A stretch of 24,417 nucleotides of DNA from a virus, in UHGV virus genome UHGV-0375912, one strand, 5' to 3'. The notes beneath the pieces are model-generated. The model was not told where the DNA came from and did not search any database. It worked only from the letters and a program-made list of their open reading frames with translations. The first letter of the stretch is position 1; each line of letters opens with the position of its first letter. The translations under genes were made by a program, and so were the position numbers. Shown one piece after another: positions 2,701 through 24,198 of this stretch.

Positions 2701-2715
2701 TTGAGCGAAGTCTTG
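2701..2715. repeat. Direct repeat copy 2 (TTGAGCGAAGTCTTG), upstream of the small ORF on its coding strand
   Basis: 15/15 identical to 2437-2451. Confidence 0.9.
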
Positions 2716-3298: not shown

Positions 3299-3303
3299 GA
3301 TGT

Positions 3304-7138: not shown

Positions 7139-7196
7139 CCGGCGTCAGCCAGTCCGGGAAAACCTTCACGATTAACCCTTAATTTCAGGAAAAACT

Positions 7197-8270: not shown

Positions 8271-8273
8271 CCG

Positions 8274-9017: not shown

Positions 9018-9116
9018 CAACCGAATGCGCCCCGCGCCAGGGCGGCACGCCGGTCAGTGAGGGTGAATCACCTGACGCTGTACCGGCGTCCACCGCCCGA
9101 CTTTTCAGAGGTAGTC

Positions 9117-9626
9117 ATGATGACGCTGATTATTCCGCGAAAGGAGGCTCCCGTGTCCGGTGAGGGTACGGTGGTCATCCCGCAACCGGCAGGCGACGAG
9201 CCGGTGATTAAAAACACGTTCTTTTTTCCCGATATCGACCCGAAGCGCGTCCGGGAACGTATGCGCCTTGAGCAGACCGTCGCCCCCGCCCGTCTGCGTG
9301 AGGCCATCAAGTCAGGCATGGCGGAGACGAATGCGGAGCTGTACGAGTACCGCGAACAGAAAATTGCCGCCGGTTTTACGCGTCTGGCGGACGTCCCGGC
9401 GGACGACATCGACGGTGAAAGCATCAAGGTTTTTTACTACGAGCGCGCCGTGTGTGCGATGGCGACCGCGTCGCTTTATGAGCGTTATCGCGGCGTGGAT
9501 GCCAGTGCGAAAGGCGACAAAAAGGCCGACAGCATAGACAGCACCATTGATGAGCTGTGGCGGGATATGCGCTGGGCGGTGGCGCGTATCCAGGACAAGC
9601 CGCGCTGCATCGTGAGTCAAATCTGA
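9117..9626 (+). CDS. L: Head completion/stabilisation protein (P2 gpL-like)
   Basis: ORF track starts at 9057; start taken at ATG 9117 (MMTLIIPRK...) with an AGAGG RBS 6 nt upstream; stop overlaps the X start (ATGA). Confidence 0.85.
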   Translation: MMTLIIPRKEAPVSGEGTVVIPQPAGDEPVIKNTFFFPDIDPKRVRERMRLEQTVAPARLREAIKSGMAETNAELYEYREQKIAAGFTRLADVPADDIDGESIKVFYYERAVCAMATASLYERYRGVDASAKGDKKADSIDSTIDELWRDMRWAVARIQDKPRCIVSQI

Positions 9627-9829
9627 TGAAGACCTTTGCGCTACAGGGCGACACGCTCGACGCCATTTGTGTCCGGTATTACGGGCGCACTGAGGGCGTG
9701 GTTGAGACCGTGCTCGCCGCAAATCCGGGACTGTCTGAACTGGGTGCGGTGCTGCCACACGGCACCGCCGTCGAACTGCCCGACGTTCAGACCGCGCCCG
9801 TGGCTGAAACTGTCAATCTGTGGGAGTAA
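9626..9829 (+). CDS. X: Tail protein X (P2 gpX-like)
   Basis: MKTFALQGDTLDAICVRYYGRTEGVVETVLAANPGL... 67 aa, taken from the internal start of the 9557-9829 frame. Confidence 0.9.
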   Translation: MKTFALQGDTLDAICVRYYGRTEGVVETVLAANPGLSELGAVLPHGTAVELPDVQTAPVAETVNLWE

Positions 9830-9832
9830 CGC

Positions 9833-10114
9833 ATGACAGCAGAAGAAAAAAGCGTCCTGTCGCTTTTCATGATTGGGGTGCTGATTGTTGTCGGCAAGGT
9901 GCTTGCCGGTGGTGAACCCATCACCCCGCGTCTGTTTATCGGGCGCATGTTGCTCGGTGGTTTTGTCTCGATGGTTGCCGGTGTTGTTCTGGTGCAGTTT
10001 CCTGACCTGTCACTGCCTGCGGTGTGCGGCATCGGCTCCATGCTGGGTATCGCCGGTTATCAGGTGATTGAGATTGCCATTCAGCGCCGTTTTAAGGGCA
10101 GGGGGAAACCGTAA
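9833..10114 (+). CDS. Y: Holin (P2 gpY-like)
   Basis: 93 aa with hydrophobic transmembrane segments and basic C-terminus; first gene of the lysis cassette. Confidence 0.9.
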   Translation: MTAEEKSVLSLFMIGVLIVVGKVLAGGEPITPRLFIGRMLLGGFVSMVAGVVLVQFPDLSLPAVCGIGSMLGIAGYQVIEIAIQRRFKGRGKP

Positions 10115-10611
10115 TGCCGGTAATTAACACGCACCAGAATATCGCCGCCTTTCTCGACATGCTGGCCGTGTCCGAAGGGACGGCGAATCATCCGCTGACG
10201 AAAAACCGGGGCTATGACGTGATAGTCACCGGACTGGACGGGAAGCCGGAAATTTTCACCGACTACAGTGACCACCCGTTCGCGCATGGCCGACCGACGA
10301 AGGTGTTTAACCGTCGCGGTGAAAAATCCACGGCCTCCGGTCGCTATCAGCAGCTTTACCTGTTCTGGCCGCATTACCGCAAACAGCTTGCCCTGCCGGA
10401 TTTCAGTCCGTTGTCACAGGACAGACTCGCCATTCAGTTGATCCGCGAACGCGGTGCGCTGGATGACATCCGGGCGGGGCGCATTGAGCGCGCCATTTCA
10501 CGCTGTCGCAATATCTGGGCGTCCCTGCCGGGTGCCGGTTACGGTCAGCGTGAGCATTCACTGGAAAAACTGGTCACCGTCTGGCGTACCGCCGGCGGCG
10601 TACCGGCTTAA
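10114..10611 (+). CDS. K: Endolysin (P2 gpK-like)
   Basis: 165-aa ORF overlapping the Y stop; matches P2 gpK. Confidence 0.9.
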   Translation: MPVINTHQNIAAFLDMLAVSEGTANHPLTKNRGYDVIVTGLDGKPEIFTDYSDHPFAHGRPTKVFNRRGEKSTASGRYQQLYLFWPHYRKQLALPDFSPLSQDRLAIQLIRERGALDDIRAGRIERAISRCRNIWASLPGAGYGQREHSLEKLVTVWRTAGGVPA

Positions 10612-10625
10612 ACGGAGTAAACACC

Positions 10626-11051
10626 ATGAAGAAATTATCCCTTTCACTGACGCTGAACGTGTCGCTGGCGCTGATGCTGGCACTGTCCCTGATTTACCCG
10701 CAGAGCGTGGCCGTTAATTTTGTCGCCGCCTGGGCGATTATGGCGACGGTTATCTGTGTGGTTGCCGGTGGTGTCGGCGTGTATGCCACGGAGTATGTAC
10801 TGGAACGCTACGGGCGGGAGCTGCCGCCGGAATCGCTGGCCGTGAAGATTGTCACGTCGCTGTTTTTGCAGCCGGTGCCGTGGCGCAGACGGGCGGCGGC
10901 TCTGGTAGTGATGGTGGCGACGTTTATCTCGCTGGTCGCTGCCGGGTGGATTTTTACTGCGCTGATTTATCTCGTGGCGTCGCTGTTTTTCCGGCTGATA
11001 CGCACGGCCTGCCGTCAGCGTCTTGAGGGGCGGGAACTATGTCAAAGCTGA
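10626..11051 (+). CDS. lysA: Lysis accessory membrane protein LysA
   Basis: 141 aa, multiple hydrophobic segments, position after K as in P2. Confidence 0.8.
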   Translation: MKKLSLSLTLNVSLALMLALSLIYPQSVAVNFVAAWAIMATVICVVAGGVGVYATEYVLERYGRELPPESLAVKIVTSLFLQPVPWRRRAAALVVMVATFISLVAAGWIFTALIYLVASLFFRLIRTACRQRLEGRELCQS

Positions 11052-11464
11052 TGATTGCACTGGTCGTGTTGTTATCGCTGGCGGTGGCGGGGCTGTTTCT
11101 GGCGAAGCATGAAAACGCCAGACTGCGCGCCTCACTGGACAGGGCGAACAACGTCGCCAGTGAACAGCAGGCGACTATCTCCATGCTGAAAAATCAGCTT
11201 CATGTTGCCCTCTCAAGGGCAGACAAAAACGAGCTGGCGCAGGTGGCACTGCGTCAGGAACTGGAGAACGCCGCGAAGCGTGAAGCACAGCGCGAGAAAA
11301 CCATCACGAGGTTACTCAATGAAAACGAAGATTTTCGCCGCTGGTATGGTGCTGACCTGCCTGATGCTGTGCGCCGGTTGCACCAGCGCCCCGCATGCAC
11401 CGACGCCAGTGATTGTCGCCAACGCCTGCCCGAAAGTGAGCCTTTGCCCGATGCCGGGCAGTGA
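11039..11464 (+). CDS. lysB: LysB, Rz-like inner-membrane spanin
   Basis: 141 aa, N-terminal transmembrane segment then coiled-coil-like charged region. Confidence 0.8.
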   Translation: MSKLMIALVVLLSLAVAGLFLAKHENARLRASLDRANNVASEQQATISMLKNQLHVALSRADKNELAQVALRQELENAAKREAQREKTITRLLNENEDFRRWYGADLPDAVRRLHQRPACTDASDCRQRLPESEPLPDAGQ

Positions 11465-11609
11465 TCCGCAGACGAACGGCGATTTAAGTGCCGATATCCG
11501 GCAGCTTGAGAACGCGCTGGCACGCTGTGCCAGCCAGGTAAAAATGATTAAACACTGTCAGGACGAAAACGATGCTCAAACCCGACAGCCTGCGCAGGGC
11601 GCTGACTGA
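11319..11609 (+). CDS. lysC: LysC, Rz1-like outer-membrane lipoprotein spanin, nested in the +1 frame of lysB
   Basis: 96 aa from MKTKIFAAGMVLTCLMLCAGC (lipobox LCAGC); taken from the internal start of the 11202-11609 frame. Confidence 0.75.
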   Translation: MKTKIFAAGMVLTCLMLCAGCTSAPHAPTPVIVANACPKVSLCPMPGSDPQTNGDLSADIRQLENALARCASQVKMIKHCQDENDAQTRQPAQGAD

Positions 11610-12039
11610 TGCCGTCACGGTGCTGAAAACCAGTCCAGAGATGCTTCGGATATTCGTGGATAACGGGAGTATTGCCTCCACGCTGGCGACGTCGCTGTCG
11701 TTCGAAAAGCGTTACACGCTCAATGTGATTGTGACCGACTTTACCGGTGATTTTGACCTGCTCATCGTGCCGGTGCTGGCGTGGCTGCGGGAAAATCAGC
11801 CCGACATCATGACCACCGACGAAGGCCAGAAAAAGGGCTTCACGTTTTATGCAGACATCAACAATGACAGCAGCTTTGATATCAGCATCAGTCTGATGCT
11901 GACCGAGCGCACGCTGGTCAGCGAGGTTGATGGTGCGCTGCATGTGAAGAATATCCCGGAACCCCCGCCGCCGGAGCCGGTCACCCGCCCGGTGGAGCTT
12001 TATATCAATGGCGAACTGGTGAGCAAGTGGGATGAATGA
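11572..12039 (+). CDS. R: Tail completion protein R
   Basis: 155-aa ORF matching P2 gpR. Confidence 0.9.
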   Translation: MLKPDSLRRALTDAVTVLKTSPEMLRIFVDNGSIASTLATSLSFEKRYTLNVIVTDFTGDFDLLIVPVLAWLRENQPDIMTTDEGQKKGFTFYADINNDSSFDISISLMLTERTLVSEVDGALHVKNIPEPPPPEPVTRPVELYINGELVSKWDE

Positions 12040-12484
12040 GTTTAAGCGTTTTGAAGACCGGCTGACCGGACTGATTGAATCGCTGTCACCGTCAGGGCGT
12101 CGGCGACTGAGTGCCGAACTGGCGAAACGTCTGCGTCAGAGTCAGCAGCGTCGGGTGATGGCACAGAAAGCCCCGGACGGCACACCCTACGCGCCACGTC
12201 AGCAGCAGAGCGCCAGAAAAAAGACCGGTCGCGTTAAGCGAAAAATGTTTGCGAAACTTATCACCAGTCGTTTTTTGCATATCCGCGCCAGCCCTGAACA
12301 GGCATCAATGGAGTTTTACGGCGGAAAGTCACCGAAAATCGCCAGTGTGCATCAGTTTGGTCTGTCGGAAGAAAACCGGAAGGACGGTAAGAAAATTGAT
12401 TATCCGGCGCGTCCTCTGCTCGGCTTTACCGGTGAGGATGTGCAGATGATTGAAGAGATTATCCTGGCTCACCTCGACCGTTAG
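12032..12484 (+). CDS. S: Tail completion protein S
   Basis: 150-aa ORF overlapping the R end; P2 gene order. Confidence 0.9.
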   Translation: MNEFKRFEDRLTGLIESLSPSGRRRLSAELAKRLRQSQQRRVMAQKAPDGTPYAPRQQQSARKKTGRVKRKMFAKLITSRFLHIRASPEQASMEFYGGKSPKIASVHQFGLSEENRKDGKKIDYPARPLLGFTGEDVQMIEEIILAHLDR

Positions 12485-12550
12485 TTGTGCCATTCCAGAC
12501 ACCTCATCGTCACATTGCCGCCGGTATGACCCGGCGGCATCCTTCCCGTT
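12485..12550 (+). promoter_or_regulatory. Late promoter region upstream of V; contains AGTTGTGCC (12483-12491) and a GC hairpin (12516-12540)
   Basis: Intergenic region ahead of the V-W-J-I-H-G operon; same TTGTGCC heptamer as upstream of FI. Confidence 0.4.
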
Positions 12551-13186
12551 ATGAACACTCTCGCAAATATTCAGGAACTCGCGCGCGCACTGCGCAACAT
12601 GATCCGCACCGGCATTATCGTCGAAACCGACCTTAACGCCGGTCGCTGCCGTGTGCAGACCGGCGGCATGTGCACCGACTGGCTTCAGTGGCTGACCCAT
12701 CGCGCCGGACGTTCGCGCACATGGTGGGCACCTTCCGTGGGGGAACAGGTGCTGATTCTGGCCGTGGGCGGTGAACTCGACACGGCGTTCGTTCTGCCGG
12801 GGATTTATTCCGGCGATAACCCCGCGCCGTCTGCGTCGGCGGATGCCCTGCATATCCGTTTCCCTGACGGGGCGGTGATTGAATATGAACCCGAAACCAG
12901 TGCACTCACGGTAAGCGGAATTAAAACGGCCAGCGTGACGGCTTCTGATTCTGTTACTGCCACGGTACCGGTGGTCACGGTGAAATCGTCAACCCGTGTC
13001 ACTCTGGACACACCGGAAGTGGTCTGCACTAACAAACTGACTACCGGCACGCTGGAAGTGCAGAAGGGCGGGACGATGCGCGGCAACATTGAACACACCG
13101 GCGGTGAACTCTCATCAAACGGTAAGGTACTGCATACCCACAAACACCCCGGCGACAGCGGCGGCACAACCGGGAGTCCTTTATGA
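12551..13186 (+). CDS. V: Baseplate central spike protein V
   Basis: 211-aa ORF; P2 gene order. Confidence 0.9.
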   Translation: MNTLANIQELARALRNMIRTGIIVETDLNAGRCRVQTGGMCTDWLQWLTHRAGRSRTWWAPSVGEQVLILAVGGELDTAFVLPGIYSGDNPAPSASADALHIRFPDGAVIEYEPETSALTVSGIKTASVTASDSVTATVPVVTVKSSTRVTLDTPEVVCTNKLTTGTLEVQKGGTMRGNIEHTGGELSSNGKVLHTHKHPGDSGGTTGSPL

Positions 13187-13530
13187 CAGCGCGTTATCTC
13201 GGAATGAATCGCAGTGATGGCCTGACGGTCACTGACCTTGAGCATATCAGCCAGAGTATCGGCGATATCCTGCGCACACCGGTCGGCTCACGGGTGATGC
13301 GTCGTGATTACGGCTCGTTGCTGGCGTCAATGATTGACCAGCCGCAGACTCCGGCGCTTGAGTTGCAGATTAAGGTCGCCTGTTACATGGCAGTGCTGAA
13401 ATGGGAACCCCGCGTCACCCTGTCATCCGTCACCACGGCGCGCAGTTTTGACGGGCGAATGACGGTCACGTTAACCGGTCAGCACAACGACACCGGCCAG
13501 CCACTTTCGTTAACCATCCCTGTGAGTTGA
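13183..13530 (+). CDS. W: Baseplate protein W (T4 gp25-like)
   Basis: 115-aa ORF overlapping the V stop. Confidence 0.9.
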   Translation: MTARYLGMNRSDGLTVTDLEHISQSIGDILRTPVGSRVMRRDYGSLLASMIDQPQTPALELQIKVACYMAVLKWEPRVTLSSVTTARSFDGRMTVTLTGQHNDTGQPLSLTIPVS

Positions 13531-13534
13531 AACC

Positions 13535-14443
13535 ATGCCGATTATCGACCTGAACCAGCTACCCGCACCGGATGTGGTCGAGGAGCTGGACTTTGAAACC
13601 ATTCTTGCCGAACGCAAGGCGACACTGATTTCCCTTTACCCGGAAGACCAGCAGGAGGCGGTCGCCCGTACCCTGACGCTGGAATCTGAGCCTCTCGTCA
13701 AACTGCTGGAGGAAAATGCTTATCGTGAGCTTATCTGGCGTCAGCGTGTGAATGAGGCCGCACGGGCGGTGATGCTGGCCTGTGCCGCCGGTAATGACCT
13801 TGATGTGATTGGTGCCAATTACAACACCACGCGCCTGACTATCACCCCGGCAGATGATTCGACCATCCCGCCGACACCGGCAGTGATGGAGTCTGACACC
13901 GATTATCGTCTGCGTATTCAGCAGGCGTTTGAAGGTTTAAGCGTCGCCGGGTCGGTGGGTGCCTATCAGTATCATGGCCGCAGTGCCGACGGGCGTGTCG
14001 CGGATATTTCTGTCACCAGTCCGTCTCCGGCCTGCGTCACTATCTCTGTGCTGTCACGTGAAAATAACGGTGTCGCATCCGAAGACCTGCTGGCCGTGGT
14101 GCGTAACGCCCTGAATGGCGAGGACGTCAGGCCGGTGGCCGACCGCGTGACCGTGCAGTCTGCCGCCATCGTTGAATACCAGATAAACGCCACGCTTTAC
14201 CTTTACCCTGGTCCCGAAAGCGAACCCATCCGCGCTGCCGCCGTGAAAAAACTGGAAGCGTATATCACGGCACAGCACCGGCTGGGGCGCGATATCCGTC
14301 TGTCTGCCATTTATGCCGCTTTGCATGTGGAAGGTGTGCAGCGTGTCGAACTGGCTGCACCGCTGGCTGACATCGTGCTCAACAGTACGCAGGCGTCTTT
14401 CTGTACCGAATACAGCGTCGTGACCGGAGGCTCGGATGAGTGA
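13535..14443 (+). CDS. J: Baseplate wedge protein J
   Basis: 302-aa ORF; P2 gene order. Confidence 0.9.
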   Translation: MPIIDLNQLPAPDVVEELDFETILAERKATLISLYPEDQQEAVARTLTLESEPLVKLLEENAYRELIWRQRVNEAARAVMLACAAGNDLDVIGANYNTTRLTITPADDSTIPPTPAVMESDTDYRLRIQQAFEGLSVAGSVGAYQYHGRSADGRVADISVTSPSPACVTISVLSRENNGVASEDLLAVVRNALNGEDVRPVADRVTVQSAAIVEYQINATLYLYPGPESEPIRAAAVKKLEAYITAQHRLGRDIRLSAIYAALHVEGVQRVELAAPLADIVLNSTQASFCTEYSVVTGGSDE

Positions 14444-15047
14444 TTCGCGACTGCTGCCGACCGGCTCATCACTGCTTGAAGTTGCCGCCGCAAAAGCCTG
14501 TGCGGAAATTGAAAAAACGCCGGTCAGTATTCGTGAGCTGTGGAACCCGGACACCTGCCCGGCAAATCTGCTGCCGTGGCTGGCGTGGTCATTTTCGGTT
14601 GACCGCTGGGATGATAAATGGCCGGAAGCGACAAAACGCGCTGTTATCCGCGATGCGTATTTCATTCACTGCCATAAGGGCACTATAGGCGCAATCCGGC
14701 GTGTGGTGGAGCCGCTCGGCTATCTGATTGAGGTGAGGGAGTGGTGGCAGCTCAACGAGGAGCCGGGGACGTTCCGTATCGTTGTTGGCGTGCTTGAGCA
14801 GGGTATTACCGAAGAAATGTATCAGGAGCTGGAGCGCCTAGTTGCTGATGCAAAACCGGCAAGCCGCCATCTGACGGGACTGGCTATCAGTTTAAGTACA
14901 ACCGGCAACATTTTTGCCGGTGCGGGATGCTATCACGGTGACGCCCTGACGGTTTATCCCTACACCCCGGAGGCCATTATTGTCGGAGGGGATTATTTCC
15001 CGGCCTCGGCCATTCATTTAATTGATAACCTGAGAGTAAACGCATGA
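14436..15047 (+). CDS. I: Baseplate protein I
   Basis: 203-aa ORF overlapping the J and H ends. Confidence 0.85.
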
Positions 15048-16204
15048 CAGTGAAATACTACGCCATTCTGACTAATCAGGGCGCAGCACGGCTGGCTAAC
15101 GCGACGATGCTCGGCAGTAAGCTGAATCTGACGCAAATGGCCGTTGGTGATGCGAATGGTGTCTTGCCGACACCAGACCCGGCACAGACAAAACTGATTA
15201 ACCAGAAACGCATCGCGCCGCTGAATCTTCTGAGTGTTGACCCGAACAACCAGAGCCAGATTATTGCGGAGCAAATCATCCCTGAGAACGAGGGCGGATT
15301 CTGGATCCGTGAGATTGGGCTTTATGATGATGAAGGCGTACTCATTGCGGTGGCGAACTGCCCGGAAACGTACAAACCGCAGTTGCAGGAAGGCAGTGGT
15401 CGTACCCAGACTATCCGCATGATTCTGGTTGTCACGAATACCGAAGCTATCACGCTGAAAATCGACCCGTCGGTGGTACTGGCGACCCGTAAATACGTGG
15501 ATGATGAAGTCCTGGAATTAAGGCTGTATGTGGATGACCAGATGAGAAACCACATTGCCGCACAGGATCCTCATACCCAGTATGCGCAGAAACATAATCC
15601 GACATTTACCGGAGAACCAAAAGCGCCGACGCCTGCCGCAGGAAATAACACCACGCGGATTGCGACCACTGCGTTTGTTCAGGCCGCTATTACCGCTCTG
15701 ATTAACGGTGCGCCAGCCACGCTGGACACACTGAAAGAAATTGCCGCAGCCATTAACAATGACCCGAAATTCAGTACCACCATTAACAATGCGCTGTCAG
15801 GTAAGCAGCCACTGGATGAGACGCTGACTCATTTGAGTGGAAAGGATGTAGCTGGTCTTCTCGCATACCTTGGTTTGGGAGAAGCGGCAAAACGGAATGT
15901 GGGAACAGGGGAAAATCAGATACCTGATATGTCATCATATGCATCAGGTTCAGGCTGGCGAAAAATGCCAGATGGTTCAATTGAACAGTGGGGACGAATT
16001 AGTTTTCCTGGTGAACACGGGCCTGTATCCGCCAATGTTTCATTCCCGATTCCATTTACACAGACACCGGGCATTGTAATTGTGTGCGATGGTGGTTTCG
16101 GGGGCGGGAATATGTGGGGGGCGACCAACTGGAGCACTACCGGCTTCATAGCTCACTGCAATTATGGTCTTGAAGGTGGTGCGTTTTTCGCTAAGGGCTG
16201 GTAA
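15044..16204 (+). CDS. H: Tail fibre protein H: conserved N-terminal part plus the currently expressed variable C-terminal tip
   Basis: N-terminal region resembles P2 gpH; C-terminal about 110 aa begin exactly at the 26-bp inversion site (LGLGE junction); 386 aa against 669 in P2. Confidence 0.85.
15858..15883. repeat. Inversion crossover site 1 (hix/gix-like 26-bp dyad TTCTCGCATACC-TT-GGTTTGGGAGAA) inside H
   Basis: Two 12-bp half-sites in inverted orientation around a 2-bp core; inner half-site identical, in inverse orientation, to that of site 2. Confidence 0.7.
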
Positions 16205-16647
16205 TGATGAAATATCTGTACGTAAACAACCTGGCATATCCTTACGAACTTCAGTCTCTTTATGTTGAAAAAGGTGAATGGCCTGAAGAAAAAGGTGTTG
16301 ATATAGACGAAGTAATTTTCAGGGAATATTTCTATGACACACCACCAGAAGGAAAATACAGATGTGTTGGAGAAGATGGACTGCCTGCATGGGCAGATAT
16401 TCCTCCACCAACACGTGAAGAACAAATTGCATCAGCCGAAACTAAAAAGCAGCAATTGATTAATCAGGCCAACGATTATATGAACAGTAGACAATGGGTT
16501 GGTAAAGCGGCTATTGGTCGTCTGAAAGGTGAGGAACTGGCGCAATATAATTTGTGGCTGGATTATCTGGACGCACTGGAGCTGGTCGATACTTCCAGTG
16601 CACCAGATATTGAATGGCCTACTCCTCCGGCAGTTCAGGCCAGATGA
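16204..16647 (+). CDS. G: Tail fibre assembly protein G (chaperone for the current H tip)
   Basis: 147 aa with the conserved Tfa C-terminal region (...YNLWLDYLDALELVDTSSAPDIEWP). Confidence 0.85.
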   Translation: MMKYLYVNNLAYPYELQSLYVEKGEWPEEKGVDIDEVIFREYFYDTPPEGKYRCVGEDGLPAWADIPPPTREEQIASAETKKQQLINQANDYMNSRQWVGKAAIGRLKGEELAQYNLWLDYLDALELVDTSSAPDIEWPTPPAVQAR

Positions 16648-17230
16648 CATCCGGCGCGGTGCTGGTATCTGTTGCCGTCACCGCGTCAATGTAATCCAGC
16701 ACCGTGTTAAGTCGGCTGGTTTCTGCCTGCGTCAGATTCCGTCCGGCCCGTAATTTCAGTTGAATCAGACTGATGGAAGCCATTGCAGTATCAATCAGCG
16801 ACTGGCGTTGTGCTTCTGCTGCATCTACTGCGGCGCTATGCTGTGCATCGGTATCCGTCACCCATTTCTCACCATCCCATTTATCGTATGGTGTTAACGG
16901 GGCGATAGTGGTTGTATTATCAGGGTAATCACCCGGAGCTGTGATTTCTTTTGATTCTCCTGTTTCGGTGCTAAAGACGATTTCACCGCGATGGTCTGGC
17001 ACATATTCCCATGAGTTAAAATCTGCAGAACGGCAGATTGCATAACCAGCCTTATGTGTAACTGGTGCATCTAAACAAGAACATGCCGGGATACCGACGC
17101 CAACCGTAAGATATTCAGTTGATGTGGAAATATATTCCCGCGTTTCTCCGTTGTAGTTGTAAACGGTAATGAAGCCAGCCTCTGTGGCAAATCCGTTTTC
17201 ATCCAAAGTGATTTTTTTTGTGGTCATCAT
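16619..17230 (-). CDS. Alternative tail fibre assembly protein (inverted cassette)
   Basis: 203 aa with Tfa-type C-terminus (...LNTVLDYIDAVTATDTSTAPDVIWPELPEE); 3' end overlaps the G 3' end by 29 bp, convergent. Confidence 0.8.
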   Translation of the reverse strand: MMTTKKITLDENGFATEAGFITVYNYNGETREYISTSTEYLTVGVGIPACSCLDAPVTHKAGYAICRSADFNSWEYVPDHRGEIVFSTETGESKEITAPGDYPDNTTTIAPLTPYDKWDGEKWVTDTDAQHSAAVDAAEAQRQSLIDTAMASISLIQLKLRAGRNLTQAETSRLNTVLDYIDAVTATDTSTAPDVIWPELPEE

Positions 17231-17742
17231 GCTGCCCTTACAATGTAGTTAAATGCAATGTTACGTGGCCTTGTTTCTGCTGATGTTCTTGCACTCCTGG
17301 ATAAATCAAGTGTCACACCATAGTAACTAAATGCATTACCAGTTGATGGAGCGGCATATTTAACCCCAGAACTAGAACCAACATTAAAAACTCCAGATGC
17401 TGAGGAAGCTGACCCCATAGTGTTATCAATCAGAGAACCCGTAACATTTTGCATAGCGTCAAGTTGTTCGCTTAATAAAGCGCGTCCACTATCAACATCA
17501 CGCCCGTCATCCCAGCCACGAATAAATTCACCTCGTAAATCAGGCAATTTATTTGTCGGATAAGCCTTTGCCAGTTCCGGGTATTCTTCAGCAGAAAAAA
17601 ACGCACCGTTGCATTTCAGCCAGCCTGTTGGCGGAGTGGTGGAAGGCCACGGAACAGGCACGCCAACGGGTAATGCCGAACCTTCTCCCAAACCAACGTT
17701 TAAGAAAATGCAGAGATTACGGCTAACATGATAGTCACTCAT
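17227..17742 (-). CDS. Alternative tail fibre variable tip (inverted cassette); as called, fused in frame to an inverted copy of the FI start codon and RBS
   Basis: Fibre-tip-like sequence (PVPWPSTTPPTGWLKCNGAFFSAEEYPELAKAYP...RGEFIRGWDDGRD); the variable part begins at site 2 (LNVGLGE), but the ORF starts at ATG 17742 (MSDYH) preceded by GGAG. Confidence 0.6.
   Translation of the reverse strand: MSDYHVSRNLCIFLNVGLGEGSALPVGVPVPWPSTTPPTGWLKCNGAFFSAEEYPELAKAYPTNKLPDLRGEFIRGWDDGRDVDSGRALLSEQLDAMQNVTGSLIDNTMGSASSASGVFNVGSSSGVKYAAPSTGNAFSYYGVTLDLSRSARTSAETRPRNIAFNYIVRAA
17683..17708. repeat. Inversion crossover site 2 (TTCTCCCAAACC-AA-CGTTTAAGAAAA)
   Basis: hix/gix-like 26-bp site in inverted orientation to site 1; shares 17 bp (TTGGTTTGGGAGAAG region) with it. 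Confidence 0.7.
17728..17742 (-). other. Inverted copy of the FI translation start (ATGAGTGACTATCAT = MSDYH) with GGAG RBS at 17750-17753
   Basis: Reverse complement of the plus-strand 15-mer encodes the expected P2 FI N-terminus; flipping 17728-17829 joins it in frame to the FI body at 17830. Confidence 0.6.
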
Positions 17743-17829
17743 CCGTTTAACTCCGTGGTTAATGGGTGAGTGATATTTTCAGTTGTGCCGGAGATGTCAG
17801 GCTATTTGTCCCGGTTGGCTAAGGGATGA

Positions 17830-19005
17830 CACAATTTATTCTTTGTCGCTATTAACGACGGCACCCGTGTCATTTCCACCGTATCCACTGCCATTGTTGG
17901 CATGGTCTGCACGGCCAGCGATGCGGATGCGGAAACCTTCCCCCTCAATAAACCGGTGCTGATTACCAATGTGCAGAGCGCAATTGCAAAGGCCGGTAAA
18001 AAAGGCACGCTGGCGGCATCGTTGCAGGCTATCGCCGACCAGTCAAAACCGGTCACCGTTGTTGTGCGCGTGGAGGACGGCACCGGCGACGACGAAGAAA
18101 CGAAACTTGCGCAGACCGTTTCCAATATCATCGGCACCACTGACGAAAACGGTCAGTACACCGGACTGAAAGCCCTGCTGGCGGCAGAGTCGGTAACCGG
18201 TGTTAAACCGCGTATTCTTGGTGTGCCGGGACTGGATACCAAAGAGGTGGCTGTAGCACTAGCATCCGTCTGTCAGAAGCTGCGCGCTTTCGGGTATATC
18301 AGCGCATGGGGCTGTAAGACCATTTCCGAGGTGAAAGCCTACCGCCAGAATTTCAGCCAGCGTGAGCTGATGGTCATCTGGCCGGATTTCCTCGCATGGG
18401 ATACGGTCACCAGTACCACCGCCACCGCGTATGCCACCGCTCGTGCGCTGGGGCTGCGCGCTAAAATCGACCAGGAGCAGGGCTGGCATAAAACGCTGTC
18501 CAACGTCGGGGTGAACGGTGTTACCGGCATCAGCGCATCTGTATTCTGGGATTTGCAGGAGTCCGGCACCGATGCTGACCTGCTTAACGAGTCAGGCGTC
18601 ACTACGCTGATTCGCCGCGACGGTTTCCGCTTCTGGGGTAACCGTACCTGCTCTGATGACCCACTGTTTCTCTTTGAAAACTACACCCGTACCGCGCAGG
18701 TGCTGGCCGACACGATAGCTGAGGCGCACATGTGGGCGGTGGACAAGCCCATCACCGCAACGCTGATTCGCGACATCGTTGACGGCATCAATGCCAAATT
18801 CCGTGAGCTGAAAACAAACGGCTATATCGTGGATGGCTCATGCTGGTTCAGCGAAGAATCCAACGATGCGGAAACCCTCAAGGCCGGAAAACTGTATATC
18901 GACTACGACTATACACCGGTGCCTCCTCTCGAAAACCTGACCCTGCGCCAGCGTATTACCGATAAATACCTGGCGAATCTGGTCACCTCGGTTAACAGCA
19001 ATTAA
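17830..19005 (+). CDS. FI: Tail sheath protein FI; coding body without a start codon in this orientation (first in-frame ATG at 17902)
   Basis: Stop-free frame from 17830 encodes [24 protein letters not shown] before Met 17902, matching P2 FI residues 6-29; TGA at 17827-17829 lies immediately upstream. Confidence 0.85.
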   Translation, partial: [391 protein letters not shown]

Positions 19006-19017
19006 GGAGCCTGACCG

Positions 19018-19536
19018 ATGGCAATGCCGCGCAAACTCAAGTTAATGAACGTCTTTCTGAACGGCTACAGCTATCAGGGCGTCGCGAAGTCCGTCACGCT
19101 ACCAAAACTGACCCGTAAGCTCGAAAACTATCGCGGTGCGGGGATGAACGGCAGCGCACCGGTAGACCTCGGCCTTGATGACGATGCGCTGTCAATGGAG
19201 TGGTCGCTCGGTGGCTTCCCGGATTCGGTTATCTGGGAGCTTTACGCCGCAACCGGTGTGGATGCCGTACCGATTCGTTTTGCAGGCTCTTACCAGCGCG
19301 ACGATACCGGCGAAACGGTGGCCGTCGAGGTGGTCATGCGTGGACGTCAGAAAGAAATCGACACCGGCGAGGGTAAACAGGGAGAAGACACCGAGTCGAA
19401 AATCTCCGTGGTCTGCACCTATTTCCTGCTGACGATGGACGGTAAGGAGCTGGTCGAAATTGACACCATCAACATGATTGAGAAGGTGAACGGCGTCGAC
19501 CGGCTGGAGCAACACCGCCGCAATATCGGCCTGTGA
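19018..19536 (+). CDS. FII: Tail tube protein FII
   Basis: 172-aa ORF following FI; P2 gene order. Confidence 0.9.
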   Translation: MAMPRKLKLMNVFLNGYSYQGVAKSVTLPKLTRKLENYRGAGMNGSAPVDLGLDDDALSMEWSLGGFPDSVIWELYAATGVDAVPIRFAGSYQRDDTGETVAVEVVMRGRQKEIDTGEGKQGEDTESKISVVCTYFLLTMDGKELVEIDTINMIEKVNGVDRLEQHRRNIGL

Positions 19537-19591
19537 TTTTCATCCGGTCAGCCAGGCTGACCGGTAACCCCGATTCAGAAGTGAGAAAACC

Positions 19592-19867
19592 ATGAACAAA
19601 GAAAATGTCATTACCCTGGACAATCCGGTCAAACGTGGTGAGCAGGTTATCGAACAGGTCACGCTGATGAAACCCAATGCCGGGACGCTGCGCGGTGTCA
19701 GTCTGGCTGCGGTTGCAAACTCCGAAGTCGATGCACTGATTAAAGTGCTGCCGCGCATGACGGCACCGATGCTGACCGAGCAGGAAGTCGCCGCGCTGGA
19801 ACTGCCTGACCTTGTGGCGCTGGCCGGTAAGGTGGTCGGTTTTTTGTCGCCGAACTCGGTGCAGTGA
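19592..19867 (+). CDS. E: Tail assembly chaperone E
   Basis: 91-aa ORF between FII and T. Confidence 0.85.
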   Translation: MNKENVITLDNPVKRGEQVIEQVTLMKPNAGTLRGVSLAAVANSEVDALIKVLPRMTAPMLTEQEVAALELPDLVALAGKVVGFLSPNSVQ

Positions 19868-20019
19868 CGTTCCCGAAAAATCTCTCGGTCGATGACCTGA
19901 TGGCGGATGTGGCAGTGATATTTCACTGGCCGCCATCAGAACTGTATCCCATGAGCCTGACCGAACTCATCACATGGCGCGAAAAGGCGCTCCGGCGAAG
20001 CGGAAACACGAATGAGTAA
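19592..20019 (+). CDS. E+E': E+E' frameshift product (programmed -1 frameshift, lambda G/GT-like)
   Basis: Slippery heptamer T_TTT_TTG at 19840-19846 in the E frame; the -1 frame is open from 19846 to TAA at 20017-20019, giving about 142 aa and overlapping the T start. Confidence 0.7.
19840..19846 (+). promoter_or_regulatory. -1 ribosomal frameshift slippery site TTTTTTG
   Basis: X_XXY_YYZ heptamer 6 codons before the E stop. Confidence 0.65.
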
Positions 20020-22459
20020 CAATGTAAAATTACAGGTATTGCTCAGGGCTGTTGACCAGGCATCCCGCCCGTTTAAATCCATCCGCACAGCGAGCAAATC
20101 GCTGTCGGGGGATATCCGGGAAACACAAAAATCACTGCGCGAGCTGAACGGTCAGGCGTCCCGTATTGAGGGATTTCGCAAGACCAGTGCACAGCTCGCC
20201 GTGACTGGTCATGCACTTGAAAAGGCACGGCAGGAGGCTGAAGCCCTTGCCACACAGTTTAAAAACACCGAACGTCCGACCCGTGCTCAGGCGAAAGTGC
20301 TGGAATCCGCAAAGCGTGCGGCGGAGGACTTACAGGCGAAATATAACCGCCTGACGGATTCCGTTAAACGCCAGCAGCGGGAACTGGCCGCTGTGGGAAT
20401 TAATACCCGCAATCTTGCACATGATGAGCAGGGACTGAAAAACCGTATCAGTGAAACCACCGCACAGCTTAACCGTCAGCGCGACGCGCTGGCGCGTGTC
20501 AGTGCGCAACAGGCAAAACTTAACGCAGTCAAACAGCGTTATCAGGCCGGAAAGGAACTGGCCGGAAATATGGCCTCGGTGGGCGCTGCCGGTGTGGGGA
20601 TTGCGGCGGCGGGAACGATGGCCGGAGTTAAGCTGCTGATGCCCGGTTATGAGTTTGCGCAGAAAAACTCAGAATTGCAGGCCGTGCTCGGAGTGGCAAA
20701 AGACTCCGCCGAAATGACCGCACTACGCAAACAGGCGCGCCAGCTCGGCGACAATACCGCCGCCTCGGCGGATGATGCGGCCGGTGCACAGATAATCATC
20801 GCGAAAGCGGGTGGGGATGTTGATGCCATTCAGGCGGCAACGCCGGTCACGCTGAATATGGCGCTGGCGAACCGCCGCACGATGGAAGAAAACGCCGCCC
20901 TGCTGATGGGGATGAAATCCGCCTTTCAGCTTTCAAACGATAAGGTCGCTCATATCGGGGATGTTCTCTCCATGACGATGAACAAAACCGCCGCCGATTT
21001 TGACGGCATGAGCGATGCGCTGACCTATGCCGCACCTGTGGCAAAAAATGCCGGTGTCAGCATTGAAGAAACCGCCGCAATGGTCGGGGCGCTGCATGAT
21101 GCAAAAATCACAGGCTCAATGGCGGGGACGGGAAGCCGTGCCGTGTTAAGCCGCCTGCAGGCACCGACGGGAAAAGCATGGGATGCACTCAAAGAGCTTG
21201 GCGTGAAAACCTCAGACAGCAAGGGAAACACCCGGCCAATATTTACCATTCTGAAAGAAATGCAGGCCAGTTTTGAGAAAAACCGGCTCGGTACTGCCCA
21301 GCAGGCTGAATACATGAAAACTATTTTCGGGGAGGAGGCCAGCTCAGCCGCCGCCGTGCTGATGACTGCCGCCTCAACCGGAAAGCTGGACAAACTGACC
21401 GCTGCGTTTAAAGCCTCAGACGGGAAGACCGCCGAGCTGGTAAATATCATGCAGGACAACCTAGGCGGTGACTTTAAAGAGTTTCAGTCCGCTTATGAGG
21501 CAGTGGGGACTGACCTGTTTGACCAGCAGGAAGGCGCGCTGCGTAAGCTCACGCAGACGGCCACAAAGTATGTGTTAAAACTCGACGGCTGGATCCAGAA
21601 AAACAAATCACTGGCGTCAACCATCGGCATCATTGCCGGTGGCGCGCTGGCGCTGACTGGCATCATCGGTGCCATTGGCCTCGTAGCCTGGCCGGTTATC
21701 ACCGGCATCAATGCCATCATCGCGGCAGCAGGCGCAATGGGGGCAGTCTTCACGACGGTTGGCAGTGCTGTTATGACCGCCATCGGGGCTATTAGCTGGC
21801 CGGTTGTGGCCGTGGTGGCCGCAATTGTCACCGGGGCGTTGCTTATCCGTAAATACTGGGAGCCTGTCAGCGCATTCTTTGGCGGTGTGGTTGAAGGGCT
21901 GAAAGTGGCATTTGCGCCGGTGGGGGAACTGTTCACGCCACTTAAGCCGGTGTTTGACTGGCTGGGTGAAAAGTTACAGGCCGCGTGGCAGTGGTTTAAA
22001 AACCTGATTGCTCCGGTCAAAGCCACTCAGGACACCCTGAACAGTTGCCGTGACACGGGGGGCATGTTCGGGCAGGCACTGGCTGACGCGCTGATGCTGC
22101 CGCTTAATGCGTTCAACAAACTGCGCAGCGGTATTGACTGGGTACTGGAAAAACTCGGTGTTATCAACAAAGAGTCAGACACACTTGACCAGACCGCCGC
22201 CAGAACTCAAGCCGCCACGTATGGCAGCGGTGGTTATATTCCGGCGACCAGCTCTTATGCAGGCTATCAGGCTTATCAGCCGGTCACGGCACCGGCTGGC
22301 CGCTCTTATGTGGACCAGAGTAAAAACGAATATCACATCAGCCTGACGGGTGGTACTGCGCCGGGGACACAGCTTGACCGCCAGTTACAGGATGCGCTCG
22401 AAAAATACGAGCGGGATAAACGTGCGCGCGCCCGTGCCAGCATGATGCATGACGGTTAA
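20012..22459 (+). CDS. T: Tail tape measure protein T
   Basis: 815-aa ORF with coiled-coil N-terminus and Gly/Ala-rich hydrophobic region; P2 gene order. Confidence 0.9.
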   Translation: MSNNVKLQVLLRAVDQASRPFKSIRTASKSLSGDIRETQKSLRELNGQASRIEGFRKTSAQLAVTGHALEKARQEAEALATQFKNTERPTRAQAKVLESAKRAAEDLQAKYNRLTDSVKRQQRELAAVGINTRNLAHDEQGLKNRISETTAQLNRQRDALARVSAQQAKLNAVKQRYQAGKELAGNMASVGAAGVGIAAAGTMAGVKLLMPGYEFAQKNSELQAVLGVAKDSAEMTALRKQARQLGDNTAASADDAAGAQIIIAKAGGDVDAIQAATPVTLNMALANRRTMEENAALLMGMKSAFQLSNDKVAHIGDVLSMTMNKTAADFDGMSDALTYAAPVAKNAGVSIEETAAMVGALHDAKITGSMAGTGSRAVLSRLQAPTGKAWDALKELGVKTSDSKGNTRPIFTILKEMQASFEKNRLGTAQQAEYMKTIFGEEASSAAAVLMTAASTGKLDKLTAAFKASDGKTAELVNIMQDNLGGDFKEFQSAYEAVGTDLFDQQEGALRKLTQTATKYVLKLDGWIQKNKSLASTIGIIAGGALALTGIIGAIGLVAWPVITGINAIIAAAGAMGAVFTTVGSAVMTAIGAISWPVVAVVAAIVTGALLIRKYWEPVSAFFGGVVEGLKVAFAPVGELFTPLKPVFDWLGEKLQAAWQWFKNLIAPVKATQDTLNSCRDTGGMFGQALADALMLPLNAFNKLRSGIDWVLEKLGVINKESDTLDQTAARTQAATYGSGGYIPATSSYAGYQAYQPVTAPAGRSYVDQSKNEYHISLTGGTAPGTQLDRQLQDALEKYERDKRARARASMMHDG

Positions 22460-22473
22460 GGAGGTGACGAAAA

Positions 22474-22953
22474 ATGATGCTCGCGTTAGGTATGTTTGTT
22501 TTTATGCGCCAGACGCTGCCACACCAGACCATGCAGCGTGAATCAGATTATCGCTGGCCGTCAAATTCCCGTATCGGTAAACGGGATGCCTACCAGTTTC
22601 TCGGTGTGGGTGAGGAAAACATGACGCTTGCCGGCGTGCTTTATCCCGAACTGACCGGCGGGAAGCTGACGATGACCACGCTCAGGCTGATGGCAGAGGA
22701 AGGCCGGGCGTGGCCGTTGCTGGATGGCACCGGCATGATTTACGGCATGTATGTCATCAGCAGGGTGAGTGAAACAGGGAGTATTTTCTTTGCAGACGGC
22801 ACACCCAGAAAAATTGATTTTACGCTGTCGCTCACCCGCGTTGATGAATCACTGGCCGCGCTTTATGGCGATATCGGTAAACAGGCGGAATCGCTCATCG
22901 GTAAAGCTGGCAGTATGGCGACCAGATTCACGGGTATGACGGGGGCGGGATAA
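22474..22953 (+). CDS. U: Tail protein U
   Basis: 159-aa ORF; P2 gene order. Confidence 0.9.
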   Translation: MMLALGMFVFMRQTLPHQTMQRESDYRWPSNSRIGKRDAYQFLGVGEENMTLAGVLYPELTGGKLTMTTLRLMAEEGRAWPLLDGTGMIYGMYVISRVSETGSIFFADGTPRKIDFTLSLTRVDESLAALYGDIGKQAESLIGKAGSMATRFTGMTGAG

Positions 22954-24116
22954 TGCTGGATGCACTGACATTTGATGCAGGCAGTACGCTGACGCCGGAT
23001 TACATGCTGATGCTCGACAGCAGGGATATTACCGGCAATATCAGCGACCGTCTGATGAGCATGACCCTGACGGATAACCGGGGCTTTGAGGCTGACCAGC
23101 TTGATATTGAACTGAACGATGCCGACGGGCAGGTCGGGCTGCCGGTTCGTGGCGCTGTCCTGACGGTGTATATCGGCTGGAAAGGTTTTGCCCTGGTATG
23201 CAAAGGGAAATTTACCGTTGATGAGGTTGAACACCGGGGCGCACCGGATGTGGTCACCATCCGCGCCCGGAGTGCAGATTTTCGCGGGACGCTCAATTCC
23301 CGCCGTGAAGGCTCATGGCATGACACCACGCTCGGTGCGATTGTTGAGGCGATAGCCTCCCGTAATAAGCTGGAAGCCAGTGTCGCGCCGTCACTGGCAG
23401 GAATTAAAATCCCGCACATCGACCAGTCGCAGGAGTCTGATGCGAAATTCCTGACCCGTCTTGCAGAACGCAACGGCGGTGAGGTGTCGGTAAAAATGGG
23501 AAAACTGTTGTTTCTCAAAGCGGGGCAGGGGGTGACGGCCAGCGGTAAAAAAATCCCGCAGATTACCATCACCCGCAGCGACGGCGACCGCCATCATTTT
23601 GCGATTGCTGACCGTGGAGCCTATACCGGCGTAACGGCAAAGTGGTTACACACCAAAGACCCGAAGCCACAAAAGCAGAAGGTAAAACTGAAACGCAAAA
23701 AGAAAGAGAAACACCTGCGCGCACTGGAGCACCCGAAAGCGAAACCAGTCACGCAGAAGAAAGCGCCAAAAGTACCGGAAGCGCGCGAAGGTGAATACAT
23801 GGCAGGTGAGGCTGACAACGTTTTTGCCCTGACCACGGTATATGCCACGAAAGCGCAGGCCATGCGCGCCGCTCAGGCGAAGTGGGATAAGCTGCAACGG
23901 GGTGTTGCGGAATTCTCCATCAGTCTGGCTACTGGTCGGGCAGATATTTATACGGAAACGCCGGTCAAAGTGTCAGGCTTTAAGCGCGTCATAGACGAGC
24001 AGGACTGGACAATCACTAAGGTGACACATTTTCTGAATAATAGCGGCTTCACGACGTCCTTAGAGCTTGAGGTCAGGCTTTCTGATGTGGAGTACGAAAC
24101 AGAAGATGATGAATGA
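22953..24116 (+). CDS. D: Tail protein D (late control gene D)
   Basis: 387-aa ORF overlapping the U stop (TAATG). Confidence 0.9.
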   Translation: MLDALTFDAGSTLTPDYMLMLDSRDITGNISDRLMSMTLTDNRGFEADQLDIELNDADGQVGLPVRGAVLTVYIGWKGFALVCKGKFTVDEVEHRGAPDVVTIRARSADFRGTLNSRREGSWHDTTLGAIVEAIASRNKLEASVAPSLAGIKIPHIDQSQESDAKFLTRLAERNGGEVSVKMGKLLFLKAGQGVTASGKKIPQITITRSDGDRHHFAIADRGAYTGVTAKWLHTKDPKPQKQKVKLKRKKKEKHLRALEHPKAKPVTQKKAPKVPEAREGEYMAGEADNVFALTTVYATKAQAMRAAQAKWDKLQRGVAEFSISLATGRADIYTETPVKVSGFKRVIDEQDWTITKVTHFLNNSGFTTSLELEVRLSDVEYETEDDE

Positions 24117-24135
24117 TGTTTTTTATTTTATCTGT

Positions 24136-24164
24136 TTGTTTTATAAGGATAAATTAACTAAAAT
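24136..24164 (+). promoter_or_regulatory. Candidate ogr promoter (TTGTTT - 17 bp - TAAAAT)
   Basis: AT-rich intergenic region between D and ogr; -35 at 24136-24141, -10 at 24159-24164. Confidence 0.35.
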
Positions 24165-24198
24165 GGCACCATCAACAAAACCGGAAGAGGTGCTCGCG

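What the first reader, a model, noticed from the sequence alone, without database searches (positions are those of the whole stretch)
15858..17708. Gin/Hin-type invertible tail-fibre cassette with two 26-bp crossover sites but no invertase gene nearby
Seen directly: site 1 (TTCTCGCATACC-TT-GGTTTGGGAGAA, 15858-15883, inside H at the LGLGE codons) and site 2 (TTCTCCCAAACC-AA-CGTTTAAGAAAA, 17683-17708) are dyad-symmetric 26-mers with 2-bp cores, in inverted orientation, sharing 17 bp. Their half-sites resemble hix/gix half-sites (TTnTnnnAAACC). Between them lie the H variable tip + G on the plus strand and an alternative tip + assembly gene on the minus strand, the Mu G-segment / P1 C-segment arrangement. 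Inversion would fuse the constant part of H (to about codon 275) to the alternative tip (LGLGEGSALPVGVPVPW...). No serine-invertase-sized ORF is present on either flank; where Mu has gin, FI follows within about 120 bp. Inference: host range is switchable only if an invertase is supplied in trans (for example a Pin/Fin-type invertase from another prophage); otherwise the cassette is frozen.
Basis: partly seen in the sequence, partly recalled or inferred. Interest (0 to 1): 0.55.

Follow-up and report, generated by a model that had tools for sequence, protein, structure and literature searches.

The report
Decayed invertible tail-fibre switch in prophage
This is an ordinary Mu/P1-style flip-flop tail-fibre cassette in a P2-like E. 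coli prophage; the invertase gene, its enhancer and the start of the neighbouring tail-sheath gene were destroyed by a small deletion-plus-inversion, so the switch and the phage tail are probably dead here.

Summary
Two 26-bp Gin/Hin-type sites (15858-15883 and 17683-17708) lie in inverted orientation around two fibre tips and two chaperone genes, and the window has no invertase gene.

The invertase is missing because the locus has decayed. Sibling prophages in public E. coli assemblies are 100% identical on both flanks. They carry a 60-aa invertase relic between site 2 and the sheath gene FI. The relic comes from an in-frame 411-bp deletion of a Gin-like gene.

Compared with those siblings, the window has three changes:
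- It lost 170 bp: the relic and the enhancer-homologous 5' part of the gene.
- It carries 123 bp inverted: the invertase tail, the pF late promoter, the FI ribosome site and FI codons 1-5.
- It lost 21 bp: FI codons 6-12.

The "alternative tip" ORF therefore starts with FI's MSDYH, and the tail operon has lost its promoter.

Relic-bearing siblings occur in both orientations, on two flank haplotypes. The rearranged junction was found in no other sequence searched, so an assembly error is not excluded. This is a known kind of system and of low interest.

The parts
15044..15869 (+). Constant N-terminal part of tail-fibre gene H, codons 1 to about 275, up to the crossover core.
   Evidence: Pfam Phage_tail_fib covers residues 1-150. 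Frame continuity was checked by an in-silico flip.
15858..15883 (+). Crossover site 1 (gix/hix-like 26-mer), TTCTCGCATACC-TT-GGTTTGGGAGAA, with the core TT at 15870-15871, inside H at the LGLGE codons.
   Evidence: The inversion boundary seen in MNCRE44 falls within 15870-15884.
15870..16204 (+). Variable tip A of H, currently fused to the constant part (Gp53-like_C domain).
   Evidence: The resulting 386-aa H protein is found with exactly this sequence on 25 public contigs.
16204..16647 (+). Tail-fibre assembly chaperone for tip A (P2 G-like, Caudo_TAP).
16619..17230 (-). Tail-fibre assembly chaperone for tip B (Caudo_TAP). It converges on G and overlaps it by 29 nt.
   Evidence: About 95% DNA identity to HK97/HK106 tfa.
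17227..17696 (-). Alternative tip B (Collar domain), promoterless in the ancestral arrangement and fused to the H constant part after inversion.
   Evidence: The flipped 431-aa H protein is found with exactly this sequence on 24 public contigs.
17683..17708 (+). Crossover site 2, TTCTCCCAAACC-AA-CGTTTAAGAAAA, with the core AA at 17695-17696. It is positionally homologous to Mu gixR.
17709..17727 (+). Last 19 nt of ancestral sequence to the right of site 2. Novel junction 1 lies at 17727|17728. In siblings, 170 bp follow here: the invertase-relic promoter, the enhancer-homologous 5' part of the gene, and most of the relic.
   Evidence: BLAST against L004. Enhancer position from the P1 annotation and the alignment.
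17728..17850 (-). A 123-bp segment inverted relative to every relative. Read on the minus strand it holds: the last 49 nt of the invertase gene (17850-17802); the pF activator-site homologue (about 17836-17811); the F-operon transcription start (17768-17766); the FI ribosome site; and FI codons 1-5, MSDYH (17742-17728). It now heads the 171-aa fusion ORF 17742-17227.
   Evidence: 100% identical, in reverse orientation, to L004 7855-7977. P2 feature mapping. tblastn of the invertase tail.
17851..19005 (+). Decapitated tail-sheath gene FI, starting at codon 13. Codons 6-12 are deleted and codons 1-5 are inverted away. Novel junction 2 lies at 17850|17851. The first in-frame ATG/GTG/TTG is at 17902 (original Met30), with no promoter or ribosome site of its own.

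Best explanation
The locus is the remnant of a Din-family (Gin/Cin/Pin/Hin-type) tail-fibre inversion switch of a P2-like (Peduovirus) prophage. This prophage sits between cpxP and fieF in E. coli ST131-like genomes.

How the intact system works. A Gin-like serine invertase is encoded just right of site 2. Helped by a Fis-bound enhancer lying in nt ~19-90 of its own gene, it exchanges strands at the 2-bp cores of two inverted 26-bp sites. This flips 1.83 kb. The constant part of H then becomes fused either to tip A (with chaperone G) or to tip B (with its own chaperone).

Step 1 of decay, shown by comparison. A 411-bp in-frame deletion between two copies of GCTGATTTTTGA reduced the invertase to a 60-aa relic. 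The relic keeps the first 95 nt of the gene. By homology to the annotated P1 cin enhancer, I infer that it therefore keeps the enhancer. Such prophages are common and are found in both orientations, so I infer that they are still flipped by related invertases encoded elsewhere in the cell.

Step 2 of decay, shown only in this window. A rearrangement equivalent to one small inversion (293 or 144 bp) plus one contiguous 191-bp deletion had these effects:
- It removed the relic and the enhancer-homologous stretch.
- It inverted the pF late promoter together with the FI ribosome site and FI codons 1-5.
- It deleted FI codons 6-12.

Inferred consequences. The two crossover sites and both tips are intact, but the cassette has neither invertase nor enhancer in cis, so it is effectively frozen in the tip-A orientation. 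The F operon (sheath, tube, tape measure, U, D) has lost its promoter, and the sheath gene has lost its start. pF now points into tip B and its chaperone, creating a 171-aa MSDYH::tip-B fusion ORF that is most likely an accidental by-product. With ISEc12 also in gene A, this is a defective prophage.
For: Sites and cassette content.

Full-length invertase at this position in relatives: EA2 and phage pro483 carry a 197-aa invertase between site 2 and FI. It is Gin-like (PDB 3UJ3, E=1.2e-94 over residues 1-182). Mu gixR plus the gin 5' end aligns with site 2 plus the invertase 5' end.

The relic: siblings L004-L009 share the window's exact H protein and carry the 60-aa relic. The exact relic protein is seen on 434 contigs.

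The rearrangement in the window: the window is 100% identical to L004 over 10044-17727 and 17851-21013. The only differences are L004 7685-7854 missing, 7855-7977 inverted and 7978-7998 missing. Against MNCRE44 there is 1 mismatch over 294-15884 and none over 17851-24417.

Content of the inverted piece: it contains the region that the P2 record annotates as the pF activator site, the F-operon start and the FI start.

The enhancer: the P1 record annotates it at nt 19-90 of cin. The first 95 nt of cin, gin, the EA2 invertase and the relic align at 87% mean identity. The Hin enhancer lies about 100 bp from hixL, and wild-type Hin is essentially Fis-dependent in vivo (PMC3798978; PMC4513852).

Both orientations among relic-bearing prophages: 6 loci are unflipped and 8 are flipped. 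Breakpoints fall inside the shared 15-mer, and orientation is mixed within two flank haplotypes.

Availability of invertases in trans: near-full-length invertase homologues occur in 2037 of 5426 complete E. coli genomes.

Specificity of the sites: P2, which has no cassette, has no such site in H-G-Z-FI.
Against: - The rearranged junction occurs in no other sequence searched: complete E. coli genomes, phage records, GTDB representatives, viral and metagenome contigs, and the exact-protein index.
- Both novel junctions are blunt, with no microhomology.
- A second odd inversion junction sits at window 106/107, inside ISEc12. An assembly or sequence artefact therefore cannot be excluded without reads.
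- Enhancer function in this family of P2-like prophages is inferred from homology to P1, Mu and Hin. It was not tested.
- Loss of FI function is inferred from the sequence. A downstream restart at Met30, fed by read-through transcription, is not formally excluded.
- The 411-bp deletion lies between direct repeats and could in principle recur. That would weaken the argument for flipping in trans.
Confidence: 0.82

Rival explanations
1. One reading: the cassette is an intact, invertase-less switch. It would flip, and change host range, whenever a Pin/Fin/Gin-type invertase is supplied in trans.
For: Both 26-bp sites are intact with compatible cores. Sibling prophages with a dead invertase exist in both orientations. 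Invertase homologues are common in E. coli. Cross-action of prophage invertases is documented in the literature cited in PMC4272514 (Kutsukake 2006, Fin and Hin).
Against: This copy has lost the enhancer-homologous stretch that all flipping siblings retain, and wild-type invertases are essentially dependent on Fis and the enhancer. pF and the FI start are inverted or deleted, and gene A is interrupted, so no tailed particle whose host range could change is expected.
Confidence: 0.1
2. The deletion-inversion-deletion is an assembly or sequence artefact. The real genome would have the common sibling arrangement, with the 60-aa relic and an intact pF and FI.
For: The junction is unique among all collections searched. 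Both flanks are 100% identical to siblings. The junctions are blunt. Another unexplained head-to-head junction lies at 106/107 within the first 293 nt.
Against: There are no repeats at the breakpoints that could mislead an assembler. A 123-bp inversion with flanking losses is not a typical graph artefact. The change can be described as a simple inversion plus one contiguous 191-bp deletion, which real mutations can produce. This cannot be tested without reads.
Confidence: 0.12
3. The shared 15-17 bp is only coding homology (the LGLGE motif) between two fibre tips, not a recombination site.
For: The repeat lies in coding sequence on both strands and encodes the same peptide, GLGE.
Against: The inversion breakpoints in natural variants fall exactly within it. 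The full 26-mers match the Din consensus at 25 of 26 positions, with 0.03 hits expected by chance. Site 2 aligns with Mu gixR. P2 H-G, which has no cassette, has no such site.
Confidence: 0.01
4. The 123-bp inversion is a second, programmed switch that redirects the pF late promoter.
For: After the inversion, pF, a ribosome site and an ATG head an open 171-aa ORF plus a chaperone gene.
Against: No inverted repeats flank the segment, and it is accompanied by 170-bp and 21-bp losses. None of 14 sibling loci, and none of the collections searched, shows this state.
Confidence: 0.01

Closest known systems
Phage Mu G segment with Gin, and phage P1 C segment with Cin
   Same: Two inverted 26-bp sites with a 2-bp core. 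A constant fibre N-terminus is fused alternately to two tips, each with its own chaperone, on opposite strands. The invertase gene lies immediately outside one site and carries the enhancer in its 5' end. Site 2 plus the invertase 5' end aligns with Mu gixR plus gin. The sibling invertase matches Gin at E=1e-94.
   Different: The host phage is P2-like. The cassette is 1.83 kb, against about 3 kb in Mu and 4.2 kb in P1. In this window the invertase and the enhancer are deleted.
Invertible fibre cassettes of P2-like E. coli prophages (for example phage pro483 and the EPEC E2348/69 P2-like prophages) and the Fels-2 Fin invertase
   Same: Same gene order: I, H, tfa, tfa', tip', invertase, FI. Inversion in P2-like prophages has been shown experimentally (PMC4272514).
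   Different: Those elements have a full 197-aa invertase and an intact FI. This one has neither.
Sibling prophage of E. coli MNCRE44 (NZ_CP010876.1) and of many draft ST131-like assemblies
   Same: Essentially identical sequence: 1 mismatch in 15.6 kb and none in 6.6 kb. Same two sites and the same two tips.
   Different: The siblings keep the 60-aa relic (annotated as a pseudogene), the enhancer homologue, pF and a 396-aa FI. MNCRE44 has the cassette in the opposite orientation.
The e14 P segment with Pin in E. coli K-12
   Same: A Din-type cassette in a defective prophage. pinE is a plausible source of invertase in trans (about 80% DNA identity to the sibling invertase).
   Different: e14 keeps its invertase and still phase-varies (PMC4272514).

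Membership tests
Din-family (Gin/Hin/Cin/Pin) DNA inversion system | Two roughly 26-bp imperfectly dyad-symmetric sites in inverted orientation, with identical 2-bp cores. | tested here: met
   15858-15883 and 17683-17708 each have 1 mismatch to the consensus, with 0.03 hits expected by chance. The cores are TT/AA. Natural inversion breakpoints fall inside the sites.
Din-family (Gin/Hin/Cin/Pin) DNA inversion system | A small serine invertase (about 190 aa, catalytic Ser9/10, C-terminal HTH) encoded next to the segment. | tested here: not met
   Only the last 15 codons remain, inverted, at 17849-17805. Siblings have a 60-aa relic. More distant relatives have the full 197-aa Gin-like gene.
Din-family (Gin/Hin/Cin/Pin) DNA inversion system | A Fis-dependent recombinational enhancer in cis, natively inside the 5' end of the invertase gene. 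| tested here: not met
   The homologue of the annotated P1 enhancer (nt 19-90 of cin) lies wholly within the 170 bp missing from the window. Enhancer activity itself was not testable.
Din-family (Gin/Hin/Cin/Pin) DNA inversion system | The segment is found in both orientations. | tested here: met
   Met for siblings: 6 loci unflipped and 8 flipped, all with the relic. For this copy, with its deletions, only one sequence exists, so this is not testable.
Phage tail-fibre host-range cassette (Mu S/S'-U/U' type) | A constant fibre N-terminus outside the segment, and two alternative C-terminal tips, each followed by its own assembly chaperone, on opposite strands. | tested here: met
   Pfam finds Phage_tail_fib, Gp53-like_C, Collar and two Caudo_TAP domains. 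The in-frame fusion after a flip was checked.
P2-like (Peduovirus) prophage, functional | An intact late tail operon (pF, FI, FII, E, T, U, D) and replication gene A. | tested here: not met
   pF and FI codons 1-5 are inverted and FI codons 6-12 are deleted. Gene A is joined to ISEc12 at codon ~117.

The most novel reading that the evidence does not exclude
The rearrangement is real and has rewired the Ogr-dependent late promoter pF so that a defective prophage expresses a free receptor-binding tip (the 171-aa MSDYH::Collar-domain fusion) together with its chaperone. That product could then have been co-opted, for example as a receptor-masking or exclusion factor. Separately, the sibling data suggest that orphan cassettes lacking a working invertase keep phase-varying in natural E. 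coli populations, through invertases of other prophages acting on a retained enhancer.
Probability: 0.04. Interest if true: 0.45.

Novelty: new member of a known kind. Interest (0 to 1): 0.2.

Why it matters
It matters little beyond annotation. The work shows that 'cassette without invertase' here is ordinary prophage decay, not a new trans-dependent design. It also shows that the apparent start of the alternative-tip ORF is a displaced piece of the sheath gene.

The one point of wider use comes from the siblings. Prophages with a dead 60-aa invertase relic that still holds the enhancer occur in both orientations, on mixed haplotypes. That is a population-level illustration that Din invertases act across prophages. 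It means the orientation of such cassettes cannot be predicted from the local gene content alone.

Tried and rejected
- Looked for the window's novel junction elsewhere and found nothing. I searched complete E. coli genomes, phage records, GTDB representatives, viral contigs and metagenome contigs. I also searched the exact-protein index with the 171-aa fusion. The 367-aa FI' protein gave only a contig-edge hit, which is uninformative.
- Looked for microhomology or inverted repeats at the four ancestral breakpoints by eye, using the sequences. None was found. The breakpoints also do not resemble Din half-sites, so an aberrant invertase reaction is not supported.
- First guessed that the 646-aa ORF at 281-2221 was a defence gene at the P2 old/tin hotspot. 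Pfam shows it is replication protein A, truncated by ISEc12.
- Tried to read older enhancer papers and a review (PMC400844, PMC147151, PMC4384473). None is held. I used the curated P1 GenBank annotation instead.
- Tried to place the two Fis sites by motif from my memory of the hin sequence. It was not reliable enough, so I dropped it in favour of positional homology.
- H199 (NZ_CM148374.1) looked like the same IS insertion in gene A, but it is a different prophage and a different insertion point.
Full report
**1. Setting**

The window is the late region of a P2-like (Peduovirus) prophage. The gene order is: A (281-2221), Q and P on the minus strand, O N M L X, the lysis genes, R S V W J I, H (15044-16204), G (16204-16647), the inverted cassette, then FI, FII, E, T, U, D and ogr. 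In E. coli MNCRE44 the same prophage sits between cpxP and fieF. Apart from the features discussed below, that copy is identical to the window: 1 mismatch over window 294-15884 and none over 17851-24417.

**2. The observation**

Both 26-mers are at the stated coordinates, and they form the top inverted repeat of the region. I wrote a Din-type consensus from memory. It hits only these two places in the window, each with one mismatch, against 0.03 hits expected by chance. The same consensus gives no hit in the H-G-Z/fun-FI region of phage P2, which has no cassette. It gives the same two hits in MNCRE44.

Pfam confirms what lies between the sites:
- Tip A (Gp53-like_C) and a Caudo_TAP chaperone on the plus strand.
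- Tip B (Collar domain) and a second Caudo_TAP chaperone on the minus strand.

An in-silico flip at the TT/AA cores keeps H in frame and yields a 431-aa fibre.

**3. What relatives show**

Nearly all related prophages have a 'recombinase family protein' or 'DNA invertase' gene between site 2 and FI. The 197-aa protein of strain EA2 matches Mu Gin (PDB 3UJ3) at E=1.2e-94 over residues 1-182. Mu gixR and the start of gin align with site 2 and the start of this gene, with the same spacing. The system is therefore a Din-family inversion switch by descent.

**4. First step of decay, shared with many genomes**

The closest relatives carry exactly the window's 386-aa H protein. Between site 2 and FI they have only a 183-bp ORF. 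Comparison with EA2 shows an in-frame 411-bp deletion between two copies of GCTGATTTTTGA. It leaves a 60-aa relic: the N-terminal 30 residues joined to the C-terminal 30. This exact relic protein is recorded on 434 contigs. RefSeq annotates it as a pseudogene in MNCRE44.

**5. Second step of decay, seen only in this window**

Against L004 the window is 100% identical over 10044-17727 and 17851-21013. The differences are:
- L004 7685-7854 (170 bp) is missing.
- L004 7855-7977 (123 bp) is present but inverted, as window 17728-17850.
- L004 7978-7998 (21 bp) is missing.

The same picture appears against EA2 and pro483. The change is equivalent to one small inversion (293 or 144 bp) followed by one contiguous 191-bp deletion next to an inversion endpoint. 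Neither novel junction shows microhomology, and neither resembles a Din half-site.

**6. What the rearranged pieces are**

The P2 GenBank record annotates the pF activator-binding site, the F-operon transcription start and the FI start within the stretch homologous to the inverted piece. Mapped through the alignment, these fall in the window as follows:
- pF activator site: about 17836-17811.
- F-operon transcription start: 17768-17766.
- FI codons 1-5 (MSDYH): 17742-17728, all on the minus strand.
- Last 49 nt of the invertase gene: 17850-17802. tblastn recovers its final 15 residues there.

This has two consequences. The minus-strand 'alternative tip' ORF (17742-17227) begins with FI's MSDYH. 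And FI now starts at codon 13 (17851) with no promoter, ribosome site or start codon; the first in-frame start is the original Met30, at 17902. From established knowledge of contractile sheaths, the terminal arms of each subunit interlock with neighbouring subunits, so a sheath protein lacking 29 residues is unlikely to work even if it is made. That step is inference.

**7. The enhancer**

The curated P1 record places the 'enhancer of Cin-mediated C-segment inversion' at nt 19-90 of cin. The first 95 nt of cin, gin, the EA2 invertase and the relic align without gaps at 87% mean identity, and the relic is collinear up to nt 95.

In Hin the enhancer lies about 100 bp from hixL and has two Fis sites 47 bp apart, and wild-type Hin is essentially Fis-dependent in vivo (PMC3798978; PMC4513852). 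Kahmann et al. 1985, cited there, place the Mu element 'within the invertase gene'.

The relic-bearing siblings therefore keep the enhancer homologue, and the window's 170-bp loss removes it entirely. Enhancer activity in this lineage is inferred, not shown.

**8. Does the cassette flip without its own invertase?**

MNCRE44 differs from L004 by two SNPs in 11 kb and by inversion of exactly the 1.83-kb segment. The boundaries fall inside the shared TTGGTTTGGGAGAAG.

| Measure | Window orientation | Flipped orientation |
|---|---|---|
| Exact H protein | 386 aa | 431 aa |
| Contigs carrying it | 25 | 24 |
| Index blocks listing it | 63 | 62 |
| Relic-bearing loci read | 6 | 8 |

A block of five linked SNPs in the left flank defines two haplotypes, and both haplotypes contain both orientations. 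At least two inversions must therefore have occurred after the relic formed, unless the 411-bp deletion recurred. Near-full-length invertase homologues, including pinE, occur in 2037 of 5426 complete E. coli genomes. Inversion in P2-like prophages and cross-action of prophage invertases are already in the literature (PMC4272514).

For this copy it is unlikely, because the enhancer is gone. It is also biologically moot, because the tail operon and gene A are broken.

**9. Caveat on reality**

The novel junction was not found in complete E. coli genomes, phage records, GTDB representatives, viral contigs, metagenome contigs or the exact-protein index.

The first 293 nt of the window are ISEc12 sequence joined to gene A at codon ~117. 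They contain another blunt head-to-head junction at 106/107. Two such junctions in a sequence otherwise identical to public genomes make an assembly or sequence artefact a live possibility; I put it at about 12%. Even then a relic ORF and an enhancer would be present.

**10. Verdict**

The kind of system is well known. The exact cassette sequence is common in public E. coli genomes. What is peculiar to this window is further decay. I rate interest low (0.2).

Noticed in passing
window 1-293, joined to gene A at 294: The window starts inside an IS21-family ISEc12 element that abuts replication gene A at about codon 117, so gene A lacks its 5' third here. Within the IS piece, 1-107 is an antisense istB fragment (codons ~120-156). 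It is joined head-to-head at 106/107 to the sense istB 3' end plus the IS terminus. This is an unexplained blunt inversion junction.
   Followed up: partly
L023 5819-8296 (GCA_050880625.1, JBNZBO010000014.1): After a flipped cassette, this contig continues with a complete H-I-J gene set on the minus strand instead of the relic and FI. This could be invertase-mediated recombination between crossover sites of two P2-like prophages (a large inversion), or an assembly chimera.
   Followed up: no
window about 16567-17701: Tip B and its chaperone are about 95% identical in DNA to the side-tail-fibre (stf) and tfa genes of the lambdoid phages HK97 and HK106. This is an example of receptor-binding modules being exchanged between unrelated phage types.
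   Followed up: no
L008 7169-7738: A sibling with the same H protein and the same 60-aa relic carries a different alternative tip (189 aa, no Collar-domain hit). The silent tip has therefore been swapped while the rest stayed the same.
   Followed up: no
window 17227-17742 (minus strand): The rearrangement creates a 171-aa ORF with FI's ribosome site and first five codons, 15 codons spanning site 2, and the Collar-domain tip. It lies directly downstream of the inverted pF promoter and is followed by the tip-B chaperone gene. It is probably accidental, and its expression was not tested.
   Followed up: partly
L001 4323-4340 and 4738-4755; L004 7804-7815: The widespread 60-aa invertase relic arose by deletion between two 12-nt direct repeats (GCTGATTTTTGA) inside the invertase gene. 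The deletion ends just past the enhancer-homologous stretch. This may be why relic-bearing cassettes can still be flipped in trans.
   Followed up: partly
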